In this document: piece after piece, positions 176 through 59,822 of the stretch
Layout: every line of letters begins with the position of its first letter
Position numbering within the stretch: the stretch's first letter is position 1
IMG/VR virus record: IMGVR_UViG_3300023179_006341
Span: 15,520 to 79,519 of that record
From: a virus
DNA: 64,000 nt
Strand: one strand, 5' to 3'
Program-made: the position numbers and the translations under genes
The notes under the pieces: model-generated
What the model was told of the DNA's origin: nothing
Databases searched by the model: none
What the model saw: only the letters and a program-made list of their open reading frames with translations

Positions 176-268
176 ATGGATTGGTACACACTAGGTTTAC
201 TTTTGTTTGTATGTATTGCAGTGTGGATTATAGAAGATATAATTTTACCAAAGTATCAAAATAAATAA
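176..268 (+). CDS. small membrane peptide (30 aa)
   Basis: MDWYTLGLLLFVCIAVWIIEDIILPKYQNK*, follows the previous ORF directly. Confidence 0.5.
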   Translation: MDWYTLGLLLFVCIAVWIIEDIILPKYQNK

Positions 269-336
269 TAGTATTGTTGTATGAAGTTGATGGAAAAGTG
301 CTGCGGACGAGGGTTCGAATCCCTCCCACTCCACCA
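268..336 (+). ncRNA. ssrA: two-piece (permuted) tmRNA, acceptor piece
   Basis: GGAC-GAGGG-TTCGAAT-CCCTC T-arm then CCACTCC-A-CCA ending at 336; 5' boundary approximate. Confidence 0.9.
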
Positions 337-348
337 TAAATAGATTGA

Positions 349-450
349 ATGACTGAAGAAGAGATTAATAAAAGAAATTTTAAAATTAATGTTGTAATAA
401 TTTTATTAGTTTATGTAATAGGTATTACTGTTAATATAGTCTTTTTATGA
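349..450 (+). CDS. 33-aa hydrophobic peptide inside the tmRNA intervening segment
   Basis: MTEEEINKRNFKINVVIILLVYVIGITVNIVFL*; preceded by CATAAATA (335-342). Confidence 0.5.
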   Translation: MTEEEINKRNFKINVVIILLVYVIGITVNIVFL

Positions 451-451
451 T

Positions 452-640
452 GGGGTGGTATTAGGTTTCGACGGGGTAACAAGTACGGATATGGACAACA
501 CGATAGGCGAAGAACGTAATTCTAGCAAATCAAATAATCGCAAATGACGATTACTTTGGAGAAGTTCGCTTAGCTGCGTAACCTCCACGAGGTAGGAAAG
601 ACCTTGTAACCAAACTACCTAGGGGCATTTGTGCCCCTAT
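452..640 (+). ncRNA. ssrA: two-piece (permuted) tmRNA, coding piece; tag (A)ANDDYFGEVRLAA at 540-581
   Basis: 5' GGGGTGG pairs with CCACTCC (326-332) including the G3:U70 alanine determinant; GGTTTCGAC D-loop-like motif; tag frame ends LAA-stop. Confidence 0.92.
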
Positions 641-646
641 TTTTTT
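620..646 (+). terminator. intrinsic terminator
   Basis: TAGGGGCA-TTTG-TGCCCCTA followed by T-run. Confidence 0.75.
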
Positions 647-653
647 ATAAATA
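646..653 (+). promoter_or_regulatory. T4-type late promoter TATAAATA
   Basis: Exact motif; also at 1787, 2793, 20630 and 30116, with NATAAATA variants before many late genes. Confidence 0.75.
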
Positions 654-672
654 TCTTATAAGGGAGATATTT

Positions 673-1098
673 ATGTACATATATCGTTGTAGAATAAACA
701 AGGTTGTAGATGGTGATACGGTTGAAATTGATTTAGATTTAGGTTTTAACATCATTTTAGCTAATCAAAAAGTTCGTATGGCAGGTATAGATACCCCTGA
801 AAGTAGAACATCTATTGCTGAAGAAAAAGTACGTGGTATGCTATCAAAGAAAAAATTAGCAGAAAAGTTGCCTGTAGGTAGTTGGCAAAGCATACAAACA
901 ATGAAAGCTGACAATAATGATGATAAATTCGGACGCATACTTGGTGTATTCATTATGGAAGATGGTTCTAGTTTAAATCAATGGATGATTGATAATAACT
1001 ATGCTGTACTGTATCAAGGTGAAAATAAAGAATTAGTACAAGAAGGTCATCGTTACAATAAACAAAAGTTGATTGAGCGTGGTGAGCTAAAAGCATAA
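673..1098 (+). CDS. thermonuclease (SNase) family nuclease
   Basis: VVDGDT, VRMAGIDTPE and KFGRIL motifs; start set at the ATG after the GGAG RBS. Confidence 0.85.
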   Translation: MYIYRCRINKVVDGDTVEIDLDLGFNIILANQKVRMAGIDTPESRTSIAEEKVRGMLSKKKLAEKLPVGSWQSIQTMKADNNDDKFGRILGVFIMEDGSSLNQWMIDNNYAVLYQGENKELVQEGHRYNKQKLIERGELKA

Positions 1099-1108
1099 AT
1101 ACATAATC

Positions 1109-1762
1109 ATGCTTACAAGAGAGTTCATTCAAGAAGGTGTCAACGATCCTAATATTTTTAAAGCTGTGTTTATGGCAGGTGGGCCTGGCTCAGGTAAGAG
1201 TTTTGTCGCACGTCAGTTAGGATTACAAGCAGCAGGGTTACGCACCATCAATAGTGATGATGCATTTGAGTACCTACTAAGAAAACATCAACTTGACCCT
1301 AAAATGCCACCTGAAGAACAGGAAAAACGTGATATTATTAGACAACGTGCTAAAGATATTACTTCTACTAAACGATCACTTGCCATACAGGGTCGTTTAG
1401 GATTAATCATAGATGGTACTGCTAAAAATCCCGAAAAGACAGCATCAGTTAAACAAGGATTAGAAGCACTAGGTTATGACACCATGATGATATTTGTTAA
1501 TACAAGTTTACCTGTTGCTTTAGAGCGCAATCGTATGAGAGCAAGAAGCGTACCTAATGAAGTTGTAAAAAAAGCACATGAAGAAGTTCAACTAGGCAAA
1601 GAAGGATTAGAAAAAGTTTTTGGTAGCAGTTTTGTACAAGTTTTAAATGATATGGAACCTGATTTTAAACCTGCATACAAAAAATTACAATCATTTTTAA
1701 GAAAACCATTATCACCAAATGCCCAAGAATGGGTAAACATGCATACACAGCCCAAAAAATAG
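1109..1762 (+). CDS. P-loop kinase (zeta-toxin/AAA_33-like) with capsid-targeting-like N-terminus
   Basis: GGPGSGKS Walker A, IIDGT, RNxxR lid; N-terminus MLTREFIQE. Confidence 0.75.
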   Translation: MLTREFIQEGVNDPNIFKAVFMAGGPGSGKSFVARQLGLQAAGLRTINSDDAFEYLLRKHQLDPKMPPEEQEKRDIIRQRAKDITSTKRSLAIQGRLGLIIDGTAKNPEKTASVKQGLEALGYDTMMIFVNTSLPVALERNRMRARSVPNEVVKKAHEEVQLGKEGLEKVFGSSFVQVLNDMEPDFKPAYKKLQSFLRKPLSPNAQEWVNMHTQPKK

Positions 1763-27326: not shown

Positions 27327-29168
27327 ATGGCAGAACCTAATCCATCAAATGTAGCCCCATGGTATTTACGTAATATCAATCAAGCACTAGCTTTAGATGA
27401 AGATAGTGGAAATGTTTTTGTAAGAACGGGATTTCAGGGTAATATAATTATTTCAGGTAATGTAAATATTCCTGGCACTGTTACGGTAGATAGTTCTCCC
27501 GAAGATCCTGTGCATGTTCACTTAGATGAAATCGGAACATCGGGTATTCTTAATGTACCTTATATGCCAATCGGAGGTAATGTAGTAGTAACATCAGGCA
27601 ATGTCAACGCTAATGTATCGGGAAATGTAGGTATTACAGGTAATGTTAACATCGGTACTATGCCAAATGTTAACGCAAACATTACTAGTAATGTAACAGT
27701 AGTTGATGGAGGTGGTAGTTTAACAGTTGATGGTAATGTAGGTATTACAGGCAATGTTAATATTGGTACAATGCCAAATGTTAATGCTTTAGTAACAGGA
27801 AATGTAACTTCCACATTAAGTGGCAATTTAGCAGGTATTACAGGAAATGTAACAGTAGTTGATGGAGGTGGTAGTTTAACAGTTGATGGTAATGTTGGTG
27901 TGACAGGTAATGTCAATATAGGCACCATGCCTAATGTTAATGCCAGCGTATCAGGCAATGTAAGCATAACTAACAATGCTAATGTAGTATTAGGTGGTAC
28001 TAATTTAGACGCATTTGGTCGTTTGCGTGTAAGTAATCCTGTTACATTATTTGATTCTCAGAATCGTTACTTAGATGGTCAACAATTTAGCACTATAACT
28101 GCAGGTGGTGGCTTAAGAACTTATGTTCAAAATGAGAGTAGTTTTAATTTAGCAGTGGGAACTGCCAATGGTGATAGTGTTATCACGCAATCATATACAA
28201 CACAAGCGTATCAACCTGGTAAAAGTTTATTAGCACTCAATACATTTGCGTTTGCTAGTGCTAAACCAAATTTAAGACAACGAGTGGGATATTTTACAAG
28301 TCAAAATGGTGTATTTTTTGAACAAGATGGTAGCACATTGTATATGGTAGTTAGAAGTTATACTACAGGTGCTGCTGTAGACACTAGAGTAGCACAAAGT
28401 AGTTGGAACGGTGATGCACTAGATGGAAATGGTCCTAGCGGAATTACATTAGATCCTACACTTGTTCAAATATTTTGGTTAGACATTGAGTGGTTGGGTG
28501 TAGGCAACGTACGCACAGGCTTTGTGATAAATGGACAATTTATAGTTTGCCATACATTTACACATGCTAATGTCGTAGGAAATACAAAAGTATACATGAC
28601 AACTGCTACTCTGAACCCAAGATATGAAATTACTAATACAGGAATAACAGGTAGTGCTAGTACGATGAAGCAAATCTGTAGCACAGTAATGAGCGAAGGT
28701 GGCTATAATCCTAGCGTAAGCATACAATATAGCACCAATGGCACAAATGTAACTAGAGTATCAGGGTCAAATACGTTAACAAGTTTGACAAGCATAAGAT
28801 TGAACCCTAGTTATCCTGATGCAGTTGTACTTCCTGCGCAAGTTGATTTATTATTAATTGATACAAGGTATGGGCAGTTTCAATTGATCGAAAATGCTAC
28901 ATTAGGTAATGCAGTATGGAGCAATGCTAGTGCCACAAGTGTAGTTCAAACTAGCGTTACTACCGATATAATAACTAATGGTAATGTAGTTTATGCAGGG
29001 CTTACTAGTAGTAGAGACAGCCTTGAGATCAGCGAGGACATAGCAAAAAGATTACAATTAAAAAGGTATGCGAACGGTAGTCCTATAACATTGACATTAG
29101 CCGTTTCTTATACAGGGACTAATACTGATGTACTATGGAAGCTAGGTTGGGAAGAAATTACTAATTGA
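27327..29168 (+). CDS. putative virion structural protein with GNV repeats
   Basis: GNVGITGNVNIGTMPNVNA repeats, DAFGRLRVSNP, C-terminal WEE. Confidence 0.7.
   Translation: MAEPNPSNVAPWYLRNINQALALDEDSGNVFVRTGFQGNIIISGNVNIPGTVTVDSSPEDPVHVHLDEIGTSGILNVPYMPIGGNVVVTSGNVNANVSGNVGITGNVNIGTMPNVNANITSNVTVVDGGGSLTVDGNVGITGNVNIGTMPNVNALVTGNVTSTLSGNLAGITGNVTVVDGGGSLTVDGNVGVTGNVNIGTMPNVNASVSGNVSITNNANVVLGGTNLDAFGRLRVSNPVTLFDSQNRYLDGQQFSTITAGGGLRTYVQNESSFNLAVGTANGDSVITQSYTTQAYQPGKSLLALNTFAFASAKPNLRQRVGYFTSQNGVFFEQDGSTLYMVVRSYTTGAAVDTRVAQSSWNGDALDGNGPSGITLDPTLVQIFWLDIEWLGVGNVRTGFVINGQFIVCHTFTHANVVGNTKVYMTTATLNPRYEITNTGITGSASTMKQICSTVMSEGGYNPSVSIQYSTNGTNVTRVSGSNTLTSLTSIRLNPSYPDAVVLPAQVDLLLIDTRYGQFQLIENATLGNAVWSNASATSVVQTSVTTDIITNGNVVYAGLTSSRDSLEISEDIAKRLQLKRYANGSPITLTLAVSYTGTNTDVLWKLGWEEITN
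27690..27895 (+). repeat. 50-bp identical intragenic repeat (27690-27739 / 27846-27895)
   Basis: AATGTAACAGTAGTTGATGGAGGTGGTAGTTTAACAGTTGATGGTAATGT twice. Confidence 0.85.
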
Positions 29169-29174
29169 CTGTAA

Positions 29175-30107
29175 ATGAATCATTCAAACACTGTAAAATT
29201 AATTAAAAATCCATACGAAGCAACAGTTTTTAAAAACGACAACGAATTACAAGATTTTATAAAATGTTGTGACCCACAAACAGGTTATCTATATTTTATG
29301 GATAATTTCTTTATTATTCAACACCCAACCAAAGGTAGTATGAATTATCATCCGTGGTCATATCAAAAACGATTAATAGAAACTTATCATAATTATAGAT
29401 ATTCAATAGCGTTGATGCCACGTCAAAGTGGTAAAAGTACAAGTGCAGCAGGTTATCTTTTATGGTATGCAATGTTTGTTCCTGATAGCACAATTTTAAT
29501 AGCTGCACATAAGTATGCAGGTTCACAAGAAATTATGCAACGTATACGATATGGTTATGAAAATTGTCCATTACACATTAAAGCAGGGGTTGTTACATAT
29601 AATAAAGGATCACTAGATTTTGAAAATGGCAGTAGGATTATTTCCGCTACTACAACAGAAACTACAGGTCGTGGTCTCTCAATATCATTATTATACTTAG
29701 ATGAGTTTGCGTTCGTAAGACCAAGCATTGCTAAAGAATTTTGGACTTCTATTGCACCAACCTTAGCAACAGGTGGTAAAGCAATCATAACAAGCACACC
29801 AAATAGTGATGAAGATCAATTTGCTATAATTTGGAAAGGTGCAAATAAAACACAAGATGAATATGGTAATACAACAGAATTGGGAGTAAATGGATTTAAA
29901 GCATATAAAGCACATTGGAGCGAACAACCAGGTCGTGACACCGCTTGGGCTGACAACATGAAAGCACAATTAGGTGAAGAACGTTTCAGACGAGAAATTG
30001 GGTGTTTTTCGGGTAAGACAAATATAAGACTTAAAGACTCAACAGGTAAAATATTTACAACAACCATGGAAGAATTAGAAAAAATGTTAGCAATTCGTAA
30101 TAGCTGA
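29175..30107 (+). CDS. terL: terminase large subunit N-fragment (ATPase) fused to a 34-aa N-intein
   Basis: PRQSGKS Walker A, LDEFAF Walker B, TSTP; FRREIG|CFSGKT intein start at 30003. Confidence 0.92.
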   Translation: MNHSNTVKLIKNPYEATVFKNDNELQDFIKCCDPQTGYLYFMDNFFIIQHPTKGSMNYHPWSYQKRLIETYHNYRYSIALMPRQSGKSTSAAGYLLWYAMFVPDSTILIAAHKYAGSQEIMQRIRYGYENCPLHIKAGVVTYNKGSLDFENGSRIISATTTETTGRGLSISLLYLDEFAFVRPSIAKEFWTSIAPTLATGGKAIITSTPNSDEDQFAIIWKGANKTQDEYGNTTELGVNGFKAYKAHWSEQPGRDTAWADNMKAQLGEERFRREIGCFSGKTNIRLKDSTGKIFTTTMEELEKMLAIRNS

Positions 30108-30115
30108 TGAAATAG

Positions 30116-30123
30116 TATAAATA
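30116..30123 (+). promoter_or_regulatory. late promoter for the HNH gene and the IntC-TerL fragment
   Basis: Exact TATAAATA. Confidence 0.7.
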
Positions 30124-30128
30124 AATAT

Positions 30129-30950
30129 ATGTTACAAAATAAATATCAAAAATGGTATATGAAAATAATATATCATGCTACAAATCAAAAAAGACCACAA
30201 AAAGGTCATGAAATGCATCATATCATCCCAAAATGTATGGGTGGTTTAAACAAAAAAGAAAATTTAGTTAGACTTACATTACGAGAACATTATATTTGTC
30301 ATTTGTTATTGCCAAAGTTTACAACAGGCGATGACCAAAGAAAATTAAAATTTGCTCTTTGGTGTTTTATTAATAAGTGGGGAAGAAAATCTTGCAAATT
30401 TAAAATGAATAGTAAAATGTACGAAAAATTAAAGATTGAAATTTCTGATCAAATTTCTAAACTTAACAAAGGTAAAATTAACCCCCCTTTAAGCGTGGAA
30501 ATGATTAAAAAATTTTCTGAACGAATGAGAGGTGATTCTAACCCCATGTATGGAAAATTGGGTTCTGAAAATCCAAATTTTGGTAAGAAACGGCCTGGTA
30601 TAGGTGGTAGAAAAAAAGGCACTACATGGTCAGACGAAGAGCGTTCTATACATCTTAAGATACGATCAGAAATAGGATATTATAATTATTTAAAAGATCC
30701 GAAAAGAGGAGAAAAAATAAGTAATTCACAACGAGGAAGAATTGGGACAGCTTTGGGAAAAGTTTGGTATAACGATGGTATTAATGAATACTATGGAAAT
30801 CAAGTTCCTATAGGATTTAATAAAGGTAGATTGATTTCAAATTCTTCTAAAAAAGGCATGAAATGGTTTACTAATGGGGTAGTAAGTAAACAGTTTAAAG
30901 AAGATATGCAACCACAGGATTTTATTCGTGGAAGAATTATTAAAAAATAA
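30129..30950 (+). CDS. free-standing HNH homing endonuclease with NUMOD3-like motifs
   Basis: HHIIPKCMGG..NLVRLT.REH..H; NPMYGK; W(Y/F)xxG repeats. Confidence 0.88.
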   Translation: MLQNKYQKWYMKIIYHATNQKRPQKGHEMHHIIPKCMGGLNKKENLVRLTLREHYICHLLLPKFTTGDDQRKLKFALWCFINKWGRKSCKFKMNSKMYEKLKIEISDQISKLNKGKINPPLSVEMIKKFSERMRGDSNPMYGKLGSENPNFGKKRPGIGGRKKGTTWSDEERSIHLKIRSEIGYYNYLKDPKRGEKISNSQRGRIGTALGKVWYNDGINEYYGNQVPIGFNKGRLISNSSKKGMKWFTNGVVSKQFKEDMQPQDFIRGRIIKK

Positions 30951-32013
30951 CTTAGGGCTACAAATACTTACTGATACAGGTTGGCAATCTTTTAGCGGCA
31001 TTGTCAAAAAAGGTATTAAACACACTATAACTATAGAATTAGAAAATATCTCAGTAACTTTAACACCCGATCATAATGTTTTTTTGGAAAATTTGACAAA
31101 AATACCTGCGAACAACCTTAGAAAGGGTGACAGTGTTTGTACATTAAATGGGCCGCAAATTGTAAAAAATATTTATGAGCATTGTTTAGAAGTTGTTTAC
31201 GATATAGTTAATGCAGGTTCCAATAAAAGATTTTATGCAGATGATATACTTTGTTCAAACTGTGAATTTATTATTGGTGATGAAACACTTATTAATCCTC
31301 TTATATTGAATACTCTTGAAGGTATTGAACCAATTGAAAGAATGGGTCAAGTACGTTGGTTTTCTAAACCGCAAAAGGGTAATATTTATTGTGTAGGATT
31401 AGATCCAAGTTTAGGTACAGGAAGTGATCCTGCTGCAATACAAATATTTGAGGCTAATACAACTAAACAAGTTGGTGAATGGAAACATAATCGTACTACA
31501 ATACCTGAACAAATTAAATTATTAGCTAAGATCATTGATTATATTGTAGATATCACAAAAGAACCAAATAATTTATATTATAGTTTAGAAAATAATACTA
31601 TAGGTGAAGCAGCATTGATCTCATTAGCAGAATATGGTGAAGAAAACATCAAGGGAACAATGTTAAGTGAACCTAAACAAGTAGGATCGACTAGAAGATA
31701 TCGTAAAGGATTTAATACCACACAAAAAAGTAAATTAGCAGCATGTTCAAAGTTAAAAAATTTAATTGAAAGTGGAAAAATGTCACTTAAGAGTAATGCT
31801 TTGATATCTGAATTAAAGTCATTTGTTGCTGCAGAAGGTAGTTATGCTGCTAAAATTGGAGAAACTGATGATTTAGTTATGGCAACATTATTAGTTGTAA
31901 GAATATTTCAACATTTACAAAACTATCATAGTGATTTAGACACGCATCTTAAAGATCATAGTGAATATATTGAACCAATGCCTTTTATAATGACATTAAG
32001 TTCTGTAAGCTGA
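30928..32013 (+). CDS. terL: 111-aa C-intein fused to terminase large subunit nuclease domain
   Basis: TPDH block B, VYD block F, LCSN|CEF junction (Cys+1 at 31261); GLDPSLG, LENN, DDLVMA RNase H motifs. Confidence 0.9.
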   Translation: MEELLKNNLGLQILTDTGWQSFSGIVKKGIKHTITIELENISVTLTPDHNVFLENLTKIPANNLRKGDSVCTLNGPQIVKNIYEHCLEVVYDIVNAGSNKRFYADDILCSNCEFIIGDETLINPLILNTLEGIEPIERMGQVRWFSKPQKGNIYCVGLDPSLGTGSDPAAIQIFEANTTKQVGEWKHNRTTIPEQIKLLAKIIDYIVDITKEPNNLYYSLENNTIGEAALISLAEYGEENIKGTMLSEPKQVGSTRRYRKGFNTTQKSKLAACSKLKNLIESGKMSLKSNALISELKSFVAAEGSYAAKIGETDDLVMATLLVVRIFQHLQNYHSDLDTHLKDHSEYIEPMPFIMTLSSVS

Positions 32014-51230: not shown

Positions 51231-52322
51231 ATGAAAAAGTTACTTGCTAGTTTATTGATAATAGTGCCAACCATAGTTTTTGCTGACGCTTGGATTGTGA
51301 TTAGTGTAACTAAATTCATTGTTGAAAACCTACCAAATACGCCACTTACACAAAAAGTACGTGTTAAAGGTGAATCTGATACTGCTGATAATGCGTTACA
51401 AGGTGGGTTTCGTGAAGCATGTAATCAAACATGGGGTAGTAGTGTAATTAGTGATCGTAGTGCGGTGAATGGTCGGTTGAGTACGGATCGTGTAGCCTCA
51501 AGTAGTAGTTGCTTTGTGAAAAATTATACAATTTTGGATAGATCATCTTATACTAATAACGTGGGAGATAAACGTTACGTAATCGAAATGGAAGTAGTAA
51601 CATCACCAAATAGTATCGATAGTAGATTACTTGGTGATAGTAATAAAATGAATAATATTCAAGGTGATCAACACCAAGCTGCTATACAATCATTATTAAA
51701 CAGTAGAAAAAACCAAGATAATTTAATTAAAGCCTATTTTAATTATTATCCTGAAGGTGCATTTGATATCACTGTTCATAATTTAGAAAGTGGAGTCAAT
51801 AATAGGCAATCATTTCTTAAAATTAATTATGAATATAAATTAAGTTATAAATTTATGCATGGATTATGGTCATTATTACACATAATGAAAGTACCAACTA
51901 ATTTCACCATGTTTGATCAACGATGTAATGATCCTGCATGTGTTGCACATTATGCAAGAAATTCAAATGGTATTCGTAGCGTGAAATTAACTATGCGGGA
52001 AAGTGGTAATATTATTGGTGAATCTGATTTGATTACCCTAAATGAAGGTAATTATAAAGAATTGCAAAATTCGATGAAACAATCAAGTGCAAGTATCCAA
52101 TTTAGTTTTCTAGATGCATCAAATAATATTTTAATCCAAGTTTGTGATCGTAATATTCAAAATAATAATGTATTATTAGAAGGTAATGGAACAGGATTAA
52201 TTCGTGGTGATCGTTGGGAAAAAAATTCACTTATGATTATGTTATCGAATAGTGATTTAAACAATCTAAAAAATTATCACAGGTTAGAAACAAAAGCAGT
52301 ACGCAATTGTCAAGGAAGATAA
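51231..52322 (+). CDS. secreted/periplasmic hypothetical protein
   Basis: Signal peptide MKKLLASLL..VFA. Confidence 0.7.
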   Translation: MKKLLASLLIIVPTIVFADAWIVISVTKFIVENLPNTPLTQKVRVKGESDTADNALQGGFREACNQTWGSSVISDRSAVNGRLSTDRVASSSSCFVKNYTILDRSSYTNNVGDKRYVIEMEVVTSPNSIDSRLLGDSNKMNNIQGDQHQAAIQSLLNSRKNQDNLIKAYFNYYPEGAFDITVHNLESGVNNRQSFLKINYEYKLSYKFMHGLWSLLHIMKVPTNFTMFDQRCNDPACVAHYARNSNGIRSVKLTMRESGNIIGESDLITLNEGNYKELQNSMKQSSASIQFSFLDASNNILIQVCDRNIQNNNVLLEGNGTGLIRGDRWEKNSLMIMLSNSDLNNLKNYHRLETKAVRNCQGR

Positions 52323-52330
52323 GTAAATAT

Positions 52331-53587
52331 ATGGGAGATGTATATCATTTTCAAGAATGTAGTTTTTGTGGAAAACACAAAAATGTTGTTAAAAAACTTA
52401 TAGTAGGTGAAGGTACGGCTATTTGTAGCGATTGTGTAGAATTGTGTAATGATTTATTAAAAGATGAAGAACCAATTGAGGAAAATATTCCTCGAAAAGT
52501 AAGTTTTTATGCTGATGATATCAAAGTATTTTTAGATAATTATATTATTGGTCAAGATGCTGCTAAAATATTACTTAGTGTAGCTGTAGCTAATCATTAT
52601 AAACGTATTACTGCAGATACTAAAGAATTAGAAATTCAAAAAGCAAATGTACTAATTCTTGGTCCTAGCGGTGGTGGTAAGACGTTAATGGCAAAAACTG
52701 TAGCAAAATATTTAGATGTTCCTTTTGTCATTGCAGATGCAACATCATTGACTGAGGCAGGTTATGTAGGTGATGATGTTGAAAGCATGATTCAAAGATT
52801 AGTTGCCGCTGCTGATGGAGATATTGAAAGAGCACAACGAGGAATTGTTTTTGTCGATGAAGTTGATAAGATTGCACGTAAAAGTGAAAGTGCAAGTATT
52901 ACACGTGATGTAAGTGGTGAAGGAGTTCAACAAGCATTATTAAAACTTGTTGAGGGTACATTATGTCGTGTTCCACAACAAGGAAAACGCAAACATCCTA
53001 ATAACGATATGTTAGAAATTGATACAAAAAATATATTGTTTATTGCAGGAGGAGCATTTGTAGGATTATCTGATATTATTTCAAGAAGAATGCATGGCAA
53101 TAGTATTGGATTTTCTGCACAAGTTGGACATACAGTGACAATGGATGAAATTCTTTCACAGGTTACACCTGATGATTTAACAAAATATGGCATGATTCCT
53201 GAATTTACAGGAAGATTTACTTGTAGAGTATCAATTAATGAATTAACTAAAGAACAATTGATACAAATTTTAACTCAAGTTAAGAATAATTTTATTGAAC
53301 AATATCAATATTTGTTAAGTCTTGATGAAATAGAATTAAAATTTACACCCTCTGCTATCGAACAAATTGCTGAAAATTGTCTTGCATTAAAAACAGGTGC
53401 ACGTGGCTTACAAAGTGAAGTTGAGCGTGTTTTATTAAATATTATGTTCAATAGTAAATATTTAAAAGGTAAAAAAATTCAAATTGATAAAATGGATGTG
53501 ATCAATCCTGAATTGCTAAATAAACATTGGGAACTTAAGCAAAATGAAACATACTTAGGTTCTATTTTAAAAAAAGGTAAAAAATGA
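52331..53587 (+). CDS. clpX: ATP-dependent Clp protease ATPase ClpX
   Basis: CSFC..C..C zinc domain, [28 protein letters not shown]. Confidence 0.95.
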
Positions 53588-53951: not shown

Positions 53952-55346
53952 ATGGCATACAGTAGCCAAGTATTAGATCATTATGAAAACCCAAGAAATG
54001 TAGGTTCATTTAGCAAAGATGATGAATCTGTTGGAACAGGAATGGTGGGAGCACCTGCTTGTGGTGATGTAATGAAGTTGCAGATTAAAGTAGAAGATGG
54101 CGTTATCACCGATGCAAAGTTTAAAACATATGGATGTTTAACGAGCAATGCAGAAGTAAATACTCCAACAAAAGCAATCAAAATTTCAAATCTTAGAGTT
54201 GGTGATGAGGTACTTGCTTGGAATGGGAAAAATATAGTTAATCAAAAAATACGAGAAATAATAAAACATTCAGTTACTCCTAGTGATTTATTAAAAATAA
54301 CATTTCAAAGAGAAAGTTATAGAAAAAATACAAACCCAAATACTTTTTCCATAATATGCACAAAAGAACATGTTTTTTGGAATTCAGACAATAATCCAAT
54401 TTTAGCCGAAGATTTAAAACTTGGACAAGAATTATACGAAATTACGGAATACGAATTAAGAAAATTGACAAATATCAGGCATAGGTCTGAATTAAAAACT
54501 AAAAATAGTAATAGAATGAAAAAATTTAATAAAAATTTTGACCATTCAGTATTGCCACAAAATCAAAAAGGCTATAAACATAGCGAAGATTTTTGCCAAA
54601 AAATTTCAAATGCATCGATTAAATTGTGGCAGAACCCTAACTATAAATTAAATTGGGCTAAAGGCATGTCGAAAATAGATTATTCTCAACCTACTTCTCT
54701 TGAAAAAAAATTTATAGATTTATTTGAAAAAAATAATATAGGGGCCAAATATACTGCAGGAAAAATTTGGATACAAACAAATAGTGGGCCTGCTAGTCCT
54801 GATTTTATAATCCCTGGTAAAAAAAAATGTATTGAAGTATATACAAAGCAACTTCCAACTTTTATGCAGGATAGATCAGAAACATCAAATTATATTTCAG
54901 AAAGAAGCAAACAATTAAGTACTGCAGGGTATGAAAGTTTATTTATAGCGGTTGAAGATATTGATAATTGTTTATCATCAATTCAAAATTTTATTCATAA
55001 TGGAATGAAAATAGTGGGTATTAAACCAATTTCACACTTTAATGAATTACGTGGTTGCCTTCGTGATAATAAAAATGTAATTGTTTATGATCTTAAGTTA
55101 GAAGATGGGGCACATGTATTTTTTACAAATCGTGTCGGTTCGCATAATTGTGGATCAGCTATAGCAAGTAGTTCATTGGTTACAGAATGGGTCAAAGGAA
55201 AAACTATTGACCAAGCATCTACTATACGAAATACTCATATAGCTGAAGAATTGGCTCTCCCGCCAGTCAAGATCCACTGTTCGATCCTAGCAGAGGATGC
55301 TATTAAAGCGGCAATTGAAGATTACAAAAATAAACACAATGTGTGA
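53952..55346 (+). CDS. iscU: Fe-S scaffold IscU with a 338-aa endonuclease-containing intein
   Basis: DHYENPRN, APACGD, KTYG|C...HN|CGSAIASSS, LPPVKIHCS; spliced product 126 aa. Confidence 0.93.
   Translation: MAYSSQVLDHYENPRNVGSFSKDDESVGTGMVGAPACGDVMKLQIKVEDGVITDAKFKTYGCLTSNAEVNTPTKAIKISNLRVGDEVLAWNGKNIVNQKIREIIKHSVTPSDLLKITFQRESYRKNTNPNTFSIICTKEHVFWNSDNNPILAEDLKLGQELYEITEYELRKLTNIRHRSELKTKNSNRMKKFNKNFDHSVLPQNQKGYKHSEDFCQKISNASIKLWQNPNYKLNWAKGMSKIDYSQPTSLEKKFIDLFEKNNIGAKYTAGKIWIQTNSGPASPDFIIPGKKKCIEVYTKQLPTFMQDRSETSNYISERSKQLSTAGYESLFIAVEDIDNCLSSIQNFIHNGMKIVGIKPISHFNELRGCLRDNKNVIVYDLKLEDGAHVFFTNRVGSHNCGSAIASSSLVTEWVKGKTIDQASTIRNTHIAEELALPPVKIHCSILAEDAIKAAIEDYKNKHNV
54135..55148 (+). mobile_element. 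intein with Vsr/DUF559-like endonuclease
   Basis: CLT start, CTKEH block B, VYDL block F, SHN end; internal TSLE..PDF..IEV. Confidence 0.9.
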
Positions 55347-59222: not shown

Positions 59223-59822
59223 ATGAGTCTTGTACCTATTGTAATTGAACAAACTAGTCGTGGTGAACGTAGCTACGACATATATAGTAGATTATTACGT
59301 GATCGTGTCGTTATTCTTAATGGGGAAGTTAATCATGTCACAGCGAATTTAATTGTGGCACAATTATTATTCCTTGAAAGCGAAGATAATGAAAAAGATA
59401 TTAGTTTTTACATCAACAGCCCAGGCGGTTCTGTCACCGATGGCATGAGTATTTACGATACCATGCAATTCATTAAACCCAATGTGTCTACTATCGTTAT
59501 GGGACAAGCCTGCTCTATGGGTTCGTTTTTAGCTCAAGCAGGTGCTGCGGGTAAACGTTATATTCTTCCTCATGCACGTCACATGATACATCAACCTAGT
59601 GGTGGTGCACGTGGTATGGCAAGTGATATGGAAATATCCCTCAAAGAAATTCTTAAAATGAAACGTATGCTGACTGAACTGTACGTTAAGCATAATTCAG
59701 TCGGTATGTCTTTCAATGATTTCCAACGTGACATGGATCGTGATAAGTTTATGTCTGCTCAAGAATCAGTTGATTACGGTTTGGCAGATAAAATTATTAC
59801 TAAACGTGAAAATAATGCCTAA
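59223..59822 (+). CDS. clpP: Clp protease proteolytic subunit
   Basis: [18 protein letters not shown] (Ser), MIHQP (His), DRD (Asp). Confidence 0.96.

What the first reader, a model, noticed from the sequence alone, without database searches (positions are those of the whole stretch)
268..640. Phage-encoded circularly permuted, two-piece tmRNA
Seen: the tmRNA 3' end (T-arm plus CCACTCC-A-CCA, ending at 336) lies upstream of the 5' end (GGGGTGG at 452). The two form a 7-bp acceptor stem with G3:U70. A tag frame ANDDYFGEVRLAA* follows at 540-581, then a terminator. Known: permuted two-piece tmRNAs occur in alphaproteobacteria, some cyanobacteria and a few betaproteobacteria. Inference: a phage copy under late-promoter-like control (ATAAATA at 261) may supplement or replace host ribosome rescue. 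Standard tRNA or ORF annotation would miss it.
Basis: partly seen in the sequence, partly recalled or inferred. Interest (0 to 1): 0.82.

Follow-up and report, generated by a model that had tools for sequence, protein, structure and literature searches.

The report
Phage two-piece tmRNA with nested gene
A large uncultured freshwater phage carries its own split (two-piece) ribosome-rescue RNA, a kind of phage gene already described, but here the spacer that is cut out during maturation also holds a small conserved membrane-protein gene, and the phage brings its own ClpX and ClpP protease genes.

Summary
ARAGORN calls a permuted tmRNA at 244-672 with tag ANDDYFGEVRLAA. Rfam tmRNA_permuted scores 108.7 bits against a cut-off of 47.

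- **tRNA-like domain:** in 15 related sequences the 7-bp acceptor stem between the two pieces is paired in all. Three pairs show compensatory changes, and G3:U70 is invariant.
- **Tag:** it evolves mostly by synonymous changes.
- **Genome:** a 79.5-kb IMG/VR phage record, 23% complete, so about 350 kb. It occurs in lake and other freshwater metagenomes.
- **Type and host:** the RNA is of the betaproteobacterial structural type. No near-identical bacterial donor was found and the host is unknown.
- **Promoter motif:** ATAAATA behaves as a real promoter-like motif in this phage. The copy at 261 is conserved in five of seven close relatives that show that region.

Three things go beyond it:
- The 115-nt spacer holds a 33-codon membrane-protein gene under purifying selection.
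- A leader-trailer helix closes the spacer and includes the gene's stop codon.
- The phage encodes ClpX and ClpP, which would degrade LAA-tagged proteins.

This scan has already noted spacer genes in phage tmRNAs on many other genomes. RNA ends, charging and tagging remain untested.

The parts
259..267 (+). Promoter-like motif AAATAAATA (T4-type late NATAAATA). It ends 8 nt before the first modelled base of the tmRNA.
   Evidence: Motif statistics. Conserved upstream of the tmRNA in L125, L126, L313-L316 and others.
275..336 (+). Acceptor piece: P2 strands (275-305), T arm (309-325), acceptor 3' strand (326-332), discriminator A333 and encoded CCA (334-336).
   Evidence: Rfam alignment. Covariation in T stem and acceptor stem.
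337..451 (+). Intervening segment (115 nt), absent from the mature RNA. Its ends (337-344 and 440-451) pair with each other and with ACCA, extending the acceptor stem in the precursor.
   Evidence: Leader-trailer pairing is 10 of 12 here. It is 9 to 11 of 12, with covariation, in 33 of the 36 other phage-type permuted tmRNA genes tested.
349..450 (+). 33-codon ORF with a charged N-terminus (MTEEEINKRNF...) and one hydrophobic helix. Its stop codon TGA at 448-450 lies 1 nt before the mature 5' end of the coding piece.
   Evidence: Kept in 8 distinct sequences. Arg9 uses 5 different codons. pN/pS is 0.13 over all codons and 0.27 for codons 12-32, which lie outside the search pattern.
452..646 (+). 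Coding piece: acceptor 5' strand (452-458), GGTTTCGAC D-analogue, P2 strands (472-500), PK1 region (501-539), tag frame, 3' pseudoknot and terminator.
   Evidence: RF04321 and RF01850 alignments.
540..581 (+). Tag reading frame with resume codon GCA, reading ANDDYFGEVRLAA then stop.
   Evidence: Relatives L125 and L316 differ mainly at synonymous sites.
587..619 (+). Post-tag pseudoknot. A stem (GGUAG with CUACC) encloses the conserved loop CCUUGUAACCAAA, and the loop's CCUUG pairs with the upstream CGAGG.
   Evidence: beta_tmRNA model alignment. Fold z-score -2.64. Stem covariation was read by eye in relatives.
620..646 (+). Intrinsic terminator: 8-bp GC-rich hairpin followed by a T run.
52307..53587 (+). 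Phage ClpX homologue, the unfoldase that recognises LAA-ended ssrA tags in bacteria.
   Evidence: Pfam zf-C4_ClpX, AAA_2 and ClpB_D2-small. About 50% identical to ClpX of jumbo phages G, Atu_ph07 and Phosso.
59223..59822 (+). Phage ClpP homologue.
   Evidence: PF00574 at 258.7 bits over positions 2-181 of 182. Also present in 3 of 5 related records.

Best explanation
This is a functional, phage-encoded, circularly permuted (two-piece) tmRNA gene of the betaproteobacterial structural type. It lies in a freshwater phage of about 350 kb.

Inferred course of events:
- Transcription starts a few bases after the late-type motif at 259-267 and ends at the terminator at 620-646, giving a precursor of about 370 nt.
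- In the precursor, the acceptor stem (326-332 with 452-458) is extended by pairing of ACCA plus 337-344 with 440-451. This closes the 115-nt spacer as a loop.
- Host RNase P cuts before G452 and 3' trimming stops at the encoded CCA336. The products are a 62-nt acceptor piece and a coding piece of about 195 nt, held together by the acceptor stem and P2.
- Host AlaRS charges the RNA through G3:U70, and host SmpB and EF-Tu deliver it to stalled ribosomes. Translation resumes at GCA540 and adds ANDDYFGEVRLAA.
- The LAA end hands the product to ClpXP, which the phage also encodes.
- The likely benefit is to keep ribosomes free late in infection, when many broken messages exist.
- The spacer additionally encodes a conserved 33-residue membrane protein, so the precursor is also a messenger.

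Shown here: gene anatomy, covariation, selection on the tag and on the spacer ORF, motif statistics and phage context.

Inferred only: transcription start, processing, charging, tagging and the benefit to the phage.
For: - Detection: ARAGORN and Rfam hits.
- Subtype: beta_tmRNA scores 77.7 bits, against 26.8 for alpha and 28.6 for cyano.
- Structure: the acceptor stem is paired 100% across 15 sequences with 3 compensatory pairs and an invariant G3:U70. The T stem is 97% paired and inner P2 82% paired with 2 covarying pairs.
- Tag: window against L316 shows 4 synonymous and 1 conservative change. All relatives keep an AND- or AK- start and an AA, NA or FA end.
- Phage context: hallmark genes, a virus record 23% complete, and relatives at 158 kb for 45%.
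- Composition: the gene has the phage's low GC (one search gives 0.35), while bacterial genes of this type sit in DNA of 0.51-0.70 GC.
- Promoter motif.
- Terminator.
- Leader-trailer helix.
- ClpX and ClpP.
- Spacer ORF under selection.
Against: - There are no RNA data. No true RNA run holds the stretch and only contigs could be laid, so the ends at 336 and 452, and expression itself, are unproven.
- No SmpB was found in this record or in five related partial records, so function depends on an unknown host's SmpB and AlaRS.
- The beta_tmRNA score is below that family's cut-off (77.7 against 84).
- The Rfam mid-P2 pairing is not supported (25% paired).
- Most phages that share the neighbouring nuclease gene have no tmRNA within 3 kb, so the gene is dispensable in the wider group.
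Confidence: 0.9

Rival explanations
1. The RNA is a decoy. It binds host SmpB, AlaRS or ribosomes and blocks host trans-translation rather than carrying it out, as reported for the tag-less tmRNA-like gene of mycobacteriophage DS6A.
For: The tmRNA database paper PMC11915505 cites a phage tmRNA form that inhibits the endogenous tmRNA. No phage SmpB was found.
Against: A complete tag frame with resume codon and stop is kept and changes mainly synonymously between relatives. The phage also carries ClpX and ClpP, which fit a tag-and-degrade route.
Confidence: 0.04
2. It is a host-derived remnant, a tmRNA gene or attachment-site fragment picked up by imprecise prophage excision, with no function in the phage.
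For: tmRNA genes are common prophage integration sites, and fragments occur in prophages (stated in PMC9004378).
Against: Both pieces are complete. Stems covary within a clade of phage contigs. Its composition is the phage's. The exact phage-clade PK1 string has 0 hits in 185,579 bacterial species. The closest 'bacterial' matches are low-GC, phage-like contigs in MAG bins. No integrase was seen among the ORFs scanned.
Confidence: 0.03
3. The locus is kept mainly as an expression cassette for the spacer gene, and the tmRNA parts serve chiefly as a processing and stability scaffold.
For: The spacer ORF is as conserved as the tRNA-like domain (82-85% against 80-89% identity to the window). It is far more conserved than the tag and post-tag parts, which are 30-88% identical.
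Against: Close relatives L129 and L131 keep the tmRNA with a 67-nt spacer and no ORF. Every member keeps a tag frame, and tag variability is normal for tmRNAs.
Confidence: 0.03

Closest known systems
Two-piece tmRNA (ssrA) of OM43 phage Melnitz and pelagimyophages (PMC9004378)
   Same: A permuted tmRNA gene in a large aquatic T4-related phage, found by ARAGORN and next to transcription signals. The same paper counted 53 two-piece forms among 133 unique phage tmRNAs, mostly aquatic. Melnitz's gene scores 113.4 bits on RF04321 and has the same TTATGAT|GGGG junction.
   Different: Melnitz's RNA is reported as alphaproteobacterial-type, behind an early promoter, with a glutamine riboswitch in its 3' part. 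Here the type is beta, the motif is late-type, and no riboswitch is found. The host genome here is a phage of about 350 kb that also encodes ClpX and ClpP. No gene is annotated inside the Melnitz tmRNA.
Betaproteobacterial two-piece tmRNA (Rfam RF01850; mainly Rhodocyclaceae such as Thauera, Azoarcus, Dechloromonas)
   Same: Same gene order, the same PK1 core (CAACNCGNNAGGCGA) and the same post-tag loop CCUUGUAACCAAA.
   Different: The score is below the family cut-off (77.7 against 84). Spacers in 116 such genes in bacterial records have a median of 28 nt (interquartile range 24-31). None has an ORF of 20 or more codons except two phage-like contigs. Here the spacer is 115 nt and coding. Bacterial carriers have 0.51-0.70 GC, against 0.33-0.35 here.
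Caulobacter two-piece tmRNA (Keiler, Shapiro and Williams 2000, as cited in PMC9004378)
   Same: The processing logic: one precursor is cut by tRNA-processing enzymes into an acceptor piece and a coding piece held together by base pairing.
   Different: Caulobacter is the alpha lineage and a cellular gene. Processing has been shown by experiment there and has not been shown here.
ORF inside the intervening sequence of Coxiella burnetii 23S rRNA (PMC4990558)
   Same: An excised spacer of a stable-RNA gene carries an open reading frame.
   Different: That one is in rRNA, not tmRNA, and belongs to a selfish element in a bacterium. By the abstract, its product is probably not made. Here the ORF shows purifying selection.

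Membership tests
tmRNA (SsrA), permuted two-piece form (RF04321) | Covariance-model score above the curated cut-off | tested here: met
   108.7 bits against 47, matching model positions 1-213 in full.
tmRNA (SsrA), permuted two-piece form (RF04321) | tRNA-Ala-like acceptor stem with G3:U70, discriminator A and a CCA end | tested here: met
   Read directly. G:U is present in 15 of 15 relatives and the stem is 100% paired with 3 compensatory pairs.
tmRNA (SsrA), permuted two-piece form (RF04321) | Permuted order: T arm and 3' acceptor strand lie upstream of the 5' acceptor strand and the tag | tested here: met
   CCA ends at 336 and the 5' strand starts at 452.
tmRNA (SsrA), permuted two-piece form (RF04321) | Tag reading frame that resumes on an Ala codon, ends in a hydrophobic xAA degron and has a stop | tested here: met
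   GCA at 540, tag ending ...RLAA, TAA at 579-581. Changes in relatives are mostly synonymous.
tmRNA (SsrA), permuted two-piece form (RF04321) | Pseudoknot PK1 between P2 and the tag | tested here: inconclusive
   The model's hairpin aligns at 501-516 with one mismatch. The pseudoknot partner was not tested.
tmRNA (SsrA), permuted two-piece form (RF04321) | Maturation into two RNAs, and alanine charging | not testable with these tools
   No RNA holder was listed, and only contigs could be laid.
tmRNA (SsrA), permuted two-piece form (RF04321) | Dedicated partner SmpB available | tested here: inconclusive
   No SmpB in this record (23% of the genome) or in 5 related partial records. It is presumably supplied by the host.
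Betaproteobacterial tmRNA subtype (RF01850) | Score above the curated cut-off | tested here: not met
   77.7 bits against 84. It is still far above alpha (26.8) and cyano (28.6). I call it beta-type in structure, not a member by score.
Betaproteobacterial tmRNA subtype (RF01850) | Post-tag stem enclosing the CCUUGuuACcaAA loop | tested here: met
   Aligned at 591-619. The loop is conserved and the stem varies with pairing kept in relatives (read by eye).
T4-type late promoter | (T)ATAAATA motif enriched just upstream of late (virion) genes on the coding strand | tested here: met
   27 copies against 50.7 expected. 21 are on the + strand and 14 of those are intergenic. Copies lie before virion genes at 27327, 32041 and 48915.
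T4-type late promoter | Phage gp55-type sigma and gp33-type co-activator present, and a mapped transcript start | not tested
   Not searched. Only 23% of the genome is held.
ClpXP protease | ClpX domain set and a full-length ClpP domain | tested here: met
   zf-C4_ClpX, AAA_2 and ClpB_D2-small. PF00574 at 258.7 bits.

The most novel reading that the evidence does not exclude
The precursor of this phage tmRNA has two jobs. It matures into the two tmRNA pieces, and its stem-closed spacer is the messenger for a conserved 33-residue membrane protein. The gene's stop codon, and in relatives its ribosome-binding stretch, are paired in the same helix that guides maturation. Translation of the spacer gene and maturation of the tmRNA would then be coupled. 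After RNase P cutting, the message ends 1 nt past its stop codon, so its product could itself depend on trans-translation. More widely, phage permuted tmRNA spacers act as exchangeable slots for small genes. Six or more unrelated ORF families were seen here, and none in true bacterial genes of the same type.
Probability: 0.35. Interest if true: 0.75.

Novelty: new variant of a known kind. Interest (0 to 1): 0.45.

Why it matters
The tmRNA alone adds one more phage to a published list. The details are more useful than that.

- **Full tagging route:** the phage brings nearly the whole tag-and-degrade route, with tmRNA, ClpX and ClpP, and only SmpB not seen. This argues that controlling ribosome rescue and tagged-protein turnover matters late in infection by very large phages.
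- **Spacer gene:** a conserved protein gene in the part of a stable-RNA precursor that is thrown away shows that such spacers can be coding. Gene callers and RNA annotators both tend to skip them.
- **Experimental handle:** the arrangement gives a compact natural case for studying how translation and RNA processing compete on one transcript.
- **Lineage:** the beta-type RNA in a 33% GC phage, with no close bacterial counterpart, shows that phage tmRNAs form long-lived lineages of their own. tmRNA type is therefore a weak guide to the host.

Tried and rejected
- **Isolate phages:** blastn of the gene against 50,697 phage records gave no match. Short T-arm and L116 queries there were uninformative.
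- **Bacterial donor:** the exact phage-clade PK1 string has 0 hits in 185,579 species. The broader pattern hit mainly Rhodocyclaceae at about 76-80% identity over 55 nt. The host is left open.
- **Glutamine riboswitch, as in Melnitz:** nothing was found at E up to 10.
- **SmpB:** none in the record or in five related records, all of them partial.
- **RNA evidence:** no RNA holder was listed. The two runs labelled RNA-Seq behaved as DNA, and only contigs could be laid, so nothing can be said about ends or expression.
- **Second ATAAATA at 336-342 as a conserved internal promoter:** rejected. Relatives read ATAAAGA or ATAAGGT there, and the G pairs in the leader-trailer helix.
- **Rfam mid-P2 pairing (287-290 with 487-490):** only 25% paired, so not adopted.
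- **Searches with the 33-residue protein:** The full-library phmmer search found a single cluster, P0001.
- **tRNA genes:** none in the window or in the 15.6 kb upstream.
- **One mistyped call:** a Pfam call failed because I mistyped the frame of a small upstream ORF.

Full report
**Observation**

- The T arm is at 309-325.
- The acceptor 3' strand CCACTCC is at 326-332, followed by A333 and CCA at 334-336.
- The 5' strand GGGGTGG is at 452-458. It gives a 7-bp stem with G454:T330 as G3:U70.
- The tag frame at 540-581 reads ANDDYFGEVRLAA and then a stop.
- A terminator hairpin lies at 620-639 with a T run after it.

ARAGORN calls a permuted tmRNA at 244-672 with that tag, and it is the only tRNA-like gene in the window. 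Rfam's tmRNA_permuted model matches 275-581 end to end at 108.7 bits against a cut-off of 47.

**What genome this is**

The window is bases 15520-79519 of a 79.5-kb linear IMG/VR virus record that CheckV rates 23% complete. Related records give 158 kb for 45%, so the genome is about 350 kb.

The window holds these phage genes:
- a large terminase split by a NUMOD3 nuclease gene
- virion proteins about 44% identical to T4-like cyanophage proteins
- UvsX, SSB and a DNA ligase.

GC is 0.30-0.36 throughout. Near-identical DNA occurs in lake-water, freshwater, aquaculture and estuary metagenomes from 11 studies. Contigs from two other studies match long stretches with 0-2 differences.

**Which kind of tmRNA**

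The lineage-specific models separate clearly. beta_tmRNA scores 77.7 bits and covers the gene to the terminator. alpha_tmRNA scores 26.8 and cyano_tmRNA 28.6. The beta score is below that family's cut-off of 84, so I describe the RNA as beta-type in structure rather than as a member by score.

It shares two features with the beta type: the PK1 core, and a post-tag stem that encloses the loop CCUUGUAACCAAA.

A pattern for this type hit 120 or more bacterial records, almost all Rhodocyclaceae, in DNA of 0.51-0.70 GC. The exact string shared by the phage clade has no hit in 185,579 species. The best 'bacterial' matches are low-GC contigs in unrelated MAG bins, and one of them carries an endolysin. 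No donor and no host can therefore be named.

**Evidence that it works**

I found close relatives in two ways: through the neighbouring nuclease gene, and through DNA patterns.

On an alignment of 15 sequences the pair counts are as follows:

| Helix | Cells paired | Covariation |
|---|---|---|
| Acceptor stem (between the two pieces) | 100% | Double-sided changes at 3 of 7 pairs; G3:U70 in 15 of 15 |
| T stem | 97% | 1 pair with double-sided changes |
| Inner P2 | 82% | 2 covarying pairs |
| Rfam mid-P2 | 25% | Not supported, dropped |

The covariation score is 0.262. Shuffles give 0.092 (0 of 500 reach the observed value) and slid partners give at most 0.114.

The tag is also under selection. 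Between the window and L316 it shows four synonymous changes and one Glu-to-Asp change. More distant relatives carry other tags (ANDELFAMAA, ANDSSFLLAANA, ANDDYFTQDFKLAA and one 33-residue tag), all with a normal start and a hydrophobic end.

A remnant or a pure decoy would not keep these features.

**Transcription signals**

ATAAATA is rarer in the window than chance predicts, at 27 copies against 50.7.
- 21 copies are on the strand that carries most genes.
- 14 of those 21 fall in the 10.6% of the window that is non-coding.
- Most lie 2-60 nt before an ORF start, including virion genes at 27327, 32041 and 48915.

This is how a T4-type late promoter element behaves. The copy at 261-267 ends 8 nt before the first modelled base. 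It is conserved in five of seven close relatives that show that region, and a sixth has a CTAAATA variant.

A second copy at 336-342 is peculiar to this window, because relatives read ATAAAGA there. The sigma and co-activator genes were not sought, and no transcript start is mapped. 'Late' is therefore an inference.

**The spacer**

The 115 nt between CCA336 and G452 are not a neutral linker. An ORF at 349-450 fills them. It encodes 33 residues, with a charged start and one hydrophobic helix.

Evidence that the ORF is a real gene:
- Eight distinct sequences keep the frame, the start and the stop position. One has 32 codons.
- Arg9 is written with five different codons.
- Variable sites by codon position number 6, 4 and 14.
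- Mean pS is 0.30 and mean pN 0.040.

Codons 1-11 were fixed by my search pattern, so I repeated the count on codons 12-32. That gives pS 0.233 and pN 0.062, a ratio of 0.27. L125 was found independently of the ORF and gives pS 0.42 and pN 0.086 against the window.

The ORF is 82-85% identical to the window across relatives, as conserved as the tRNA-like domain. The tag and post-tag parts fall to 30-88%. A search of 1.84 billion representative proteins found one cluster only.

**The helix that closes the spacer**

The 12 nt before the mature 5' end pair with the discriminator, CCA and the next 8 nt. Here 10 of 12 positions pair. In 33 of the 36 other phage-type genes tested, 9 to 11 of 12 pair, always with an A-C mismatch at the second position and with covariation further out.

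This helix extends the acceptor stem in the precursor. The ORF's stop codon (448-450) lies in it, opposite CCA. In relatives the purine-rich stretch before the start codon lies in the other strand.

**How general the spacer gene is**

| Set | Spacer length | Spacers with an ORF of 20 or more codons |
|---|---|---|
| 116 beta-type genes in bacterial records | Median 28 nt | Only the two low-GC, phage-like contigs |
| 42 distinct viral or metagenome spacers | Median 77.5 nt | 13, of which 12 beat 95% of shuffles |

The viral ORFs belong to several unrelated families: 83, 50, 41, 33 and 32 codons, and perhaps 21. A second family (L116 and L043, 50 codons) gives a pN/pS of 0.25.

Close relatives L129 and L131 keep the tmRNA with a 67-nt spacer and no ORF. 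L126 has a 273-nt spacer with a different 83-codon ORF. The spacer therefore behaves as a variable slot.

Two literature checks bear on novelty. The tmRNA database paper calls a tRNA gene in one spacer a unique feature and mentions no protein gene. My paper searches found no report of one. This scan's own notes describe the same thing on many other genomes. Those notes agree with my results, but they are not independent literature.

**Partners**

The phage encodes a ClpX with its zinc finger and AAA module. It is about 50% identical to ClpX of jumbo phages G, Atu_ph07 and Phosso. The phage also encodes a full-length ClpP, which three of five related records share.

From established knowledge of bacterial ssrA tags, the C-terminal LAA is the ClpX recognition signal. 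Tagging and degradation could therefore both be phage-supplied. No SmpB is seen, but all the records are partial.

**Verdict**

Its novelty was overrated, because two-piece tmRNAs in aquatic phages are published (PMC9004378) and standard tools find this one. The parts worth keeping are the selected gene in the spacer, the closing helix that holds its stop codon, and the co-encoded ClpXP. Processing, charging and tagging remain to be shown.

Noticed in passing
window 1095, 20631, 27094, 30117, 48901 and 336: ATAAATA followed by 6-8 nt and then an ATG recurs six times. If transcripts start a few bases after the motif, these genes would have leaderless or near-leaderless messages.
   Followed up: partly
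L319:285-737 (Melnitz MZ577097, 45984-46436): The published Melnitz tmRNA has a 142-nt spacer with an unannotated ATG frame behind a GGAG ribosome-binding site. The frame has 61 codons and runs about 40 nt into the coding piece. The junction TTATGAT|GGGG is the same as here, and locus tags 87 and 88 are missing from the record.
   Followed up: partly
L312:2858-3233: A close relative with the same spacer gene has an unusually long 33-residue tag (AKAST...VAFA) in place of the 13-residue one.
   Followed up: no
L126, L129, L131 compared with window 640-672: In relatives about 1 kb lies between the tmRNA terminator and the SNase-like nuclease gene, while here the two are adjacent. Most of the 63 phage contigs that share the nuclease gene have no tmRNA within 3 kb.
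   Followed up: partly
L250, L291, L297: Low-GC contigs (0.36-0.39) with phage-type permuted tmRNAs are filed in MAGs named Bifidobacterium, Alteromonadales and WWE3. They are probably mis-binned phage DNA. L291 carries an endolysin.
   Followed up: partly
window 29175-32013: The large terminase is in two ORFs, with a NUMOD3 nuclease ORF (30129-30950) between them.
   Followed up: no
window 53952-55346: A NifU/IscU-like protein is interrupted by a Hint-type (intein-like) insert with a homing-endonuclease hit.
   Followed up: no
window 673-1762: Directly after the tmRNA come an SNase-like nuclease and an AAA_33/zeta-toxin-like kinase, each behind its own ATAAATA motif. A nuclease next to a ribosome-rescue RNA may be more than coincidence.
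   Followed up: no
P0001: The only database protein matching the spacer product is 44 residues long, because the TGA stop is read as W and the frame continues into the tmRNA 5' end. This is likely a gene call under another genetic code.
   Followed up: no
window 339-342 (run X2): Contigs from another aquatic metagenome share the acceptor piece and then diverge right after CCA into other spacer contents. One begins GGAG...ATG, which hints at further spacer genes in co-occurring relatives.
   Followed up: no
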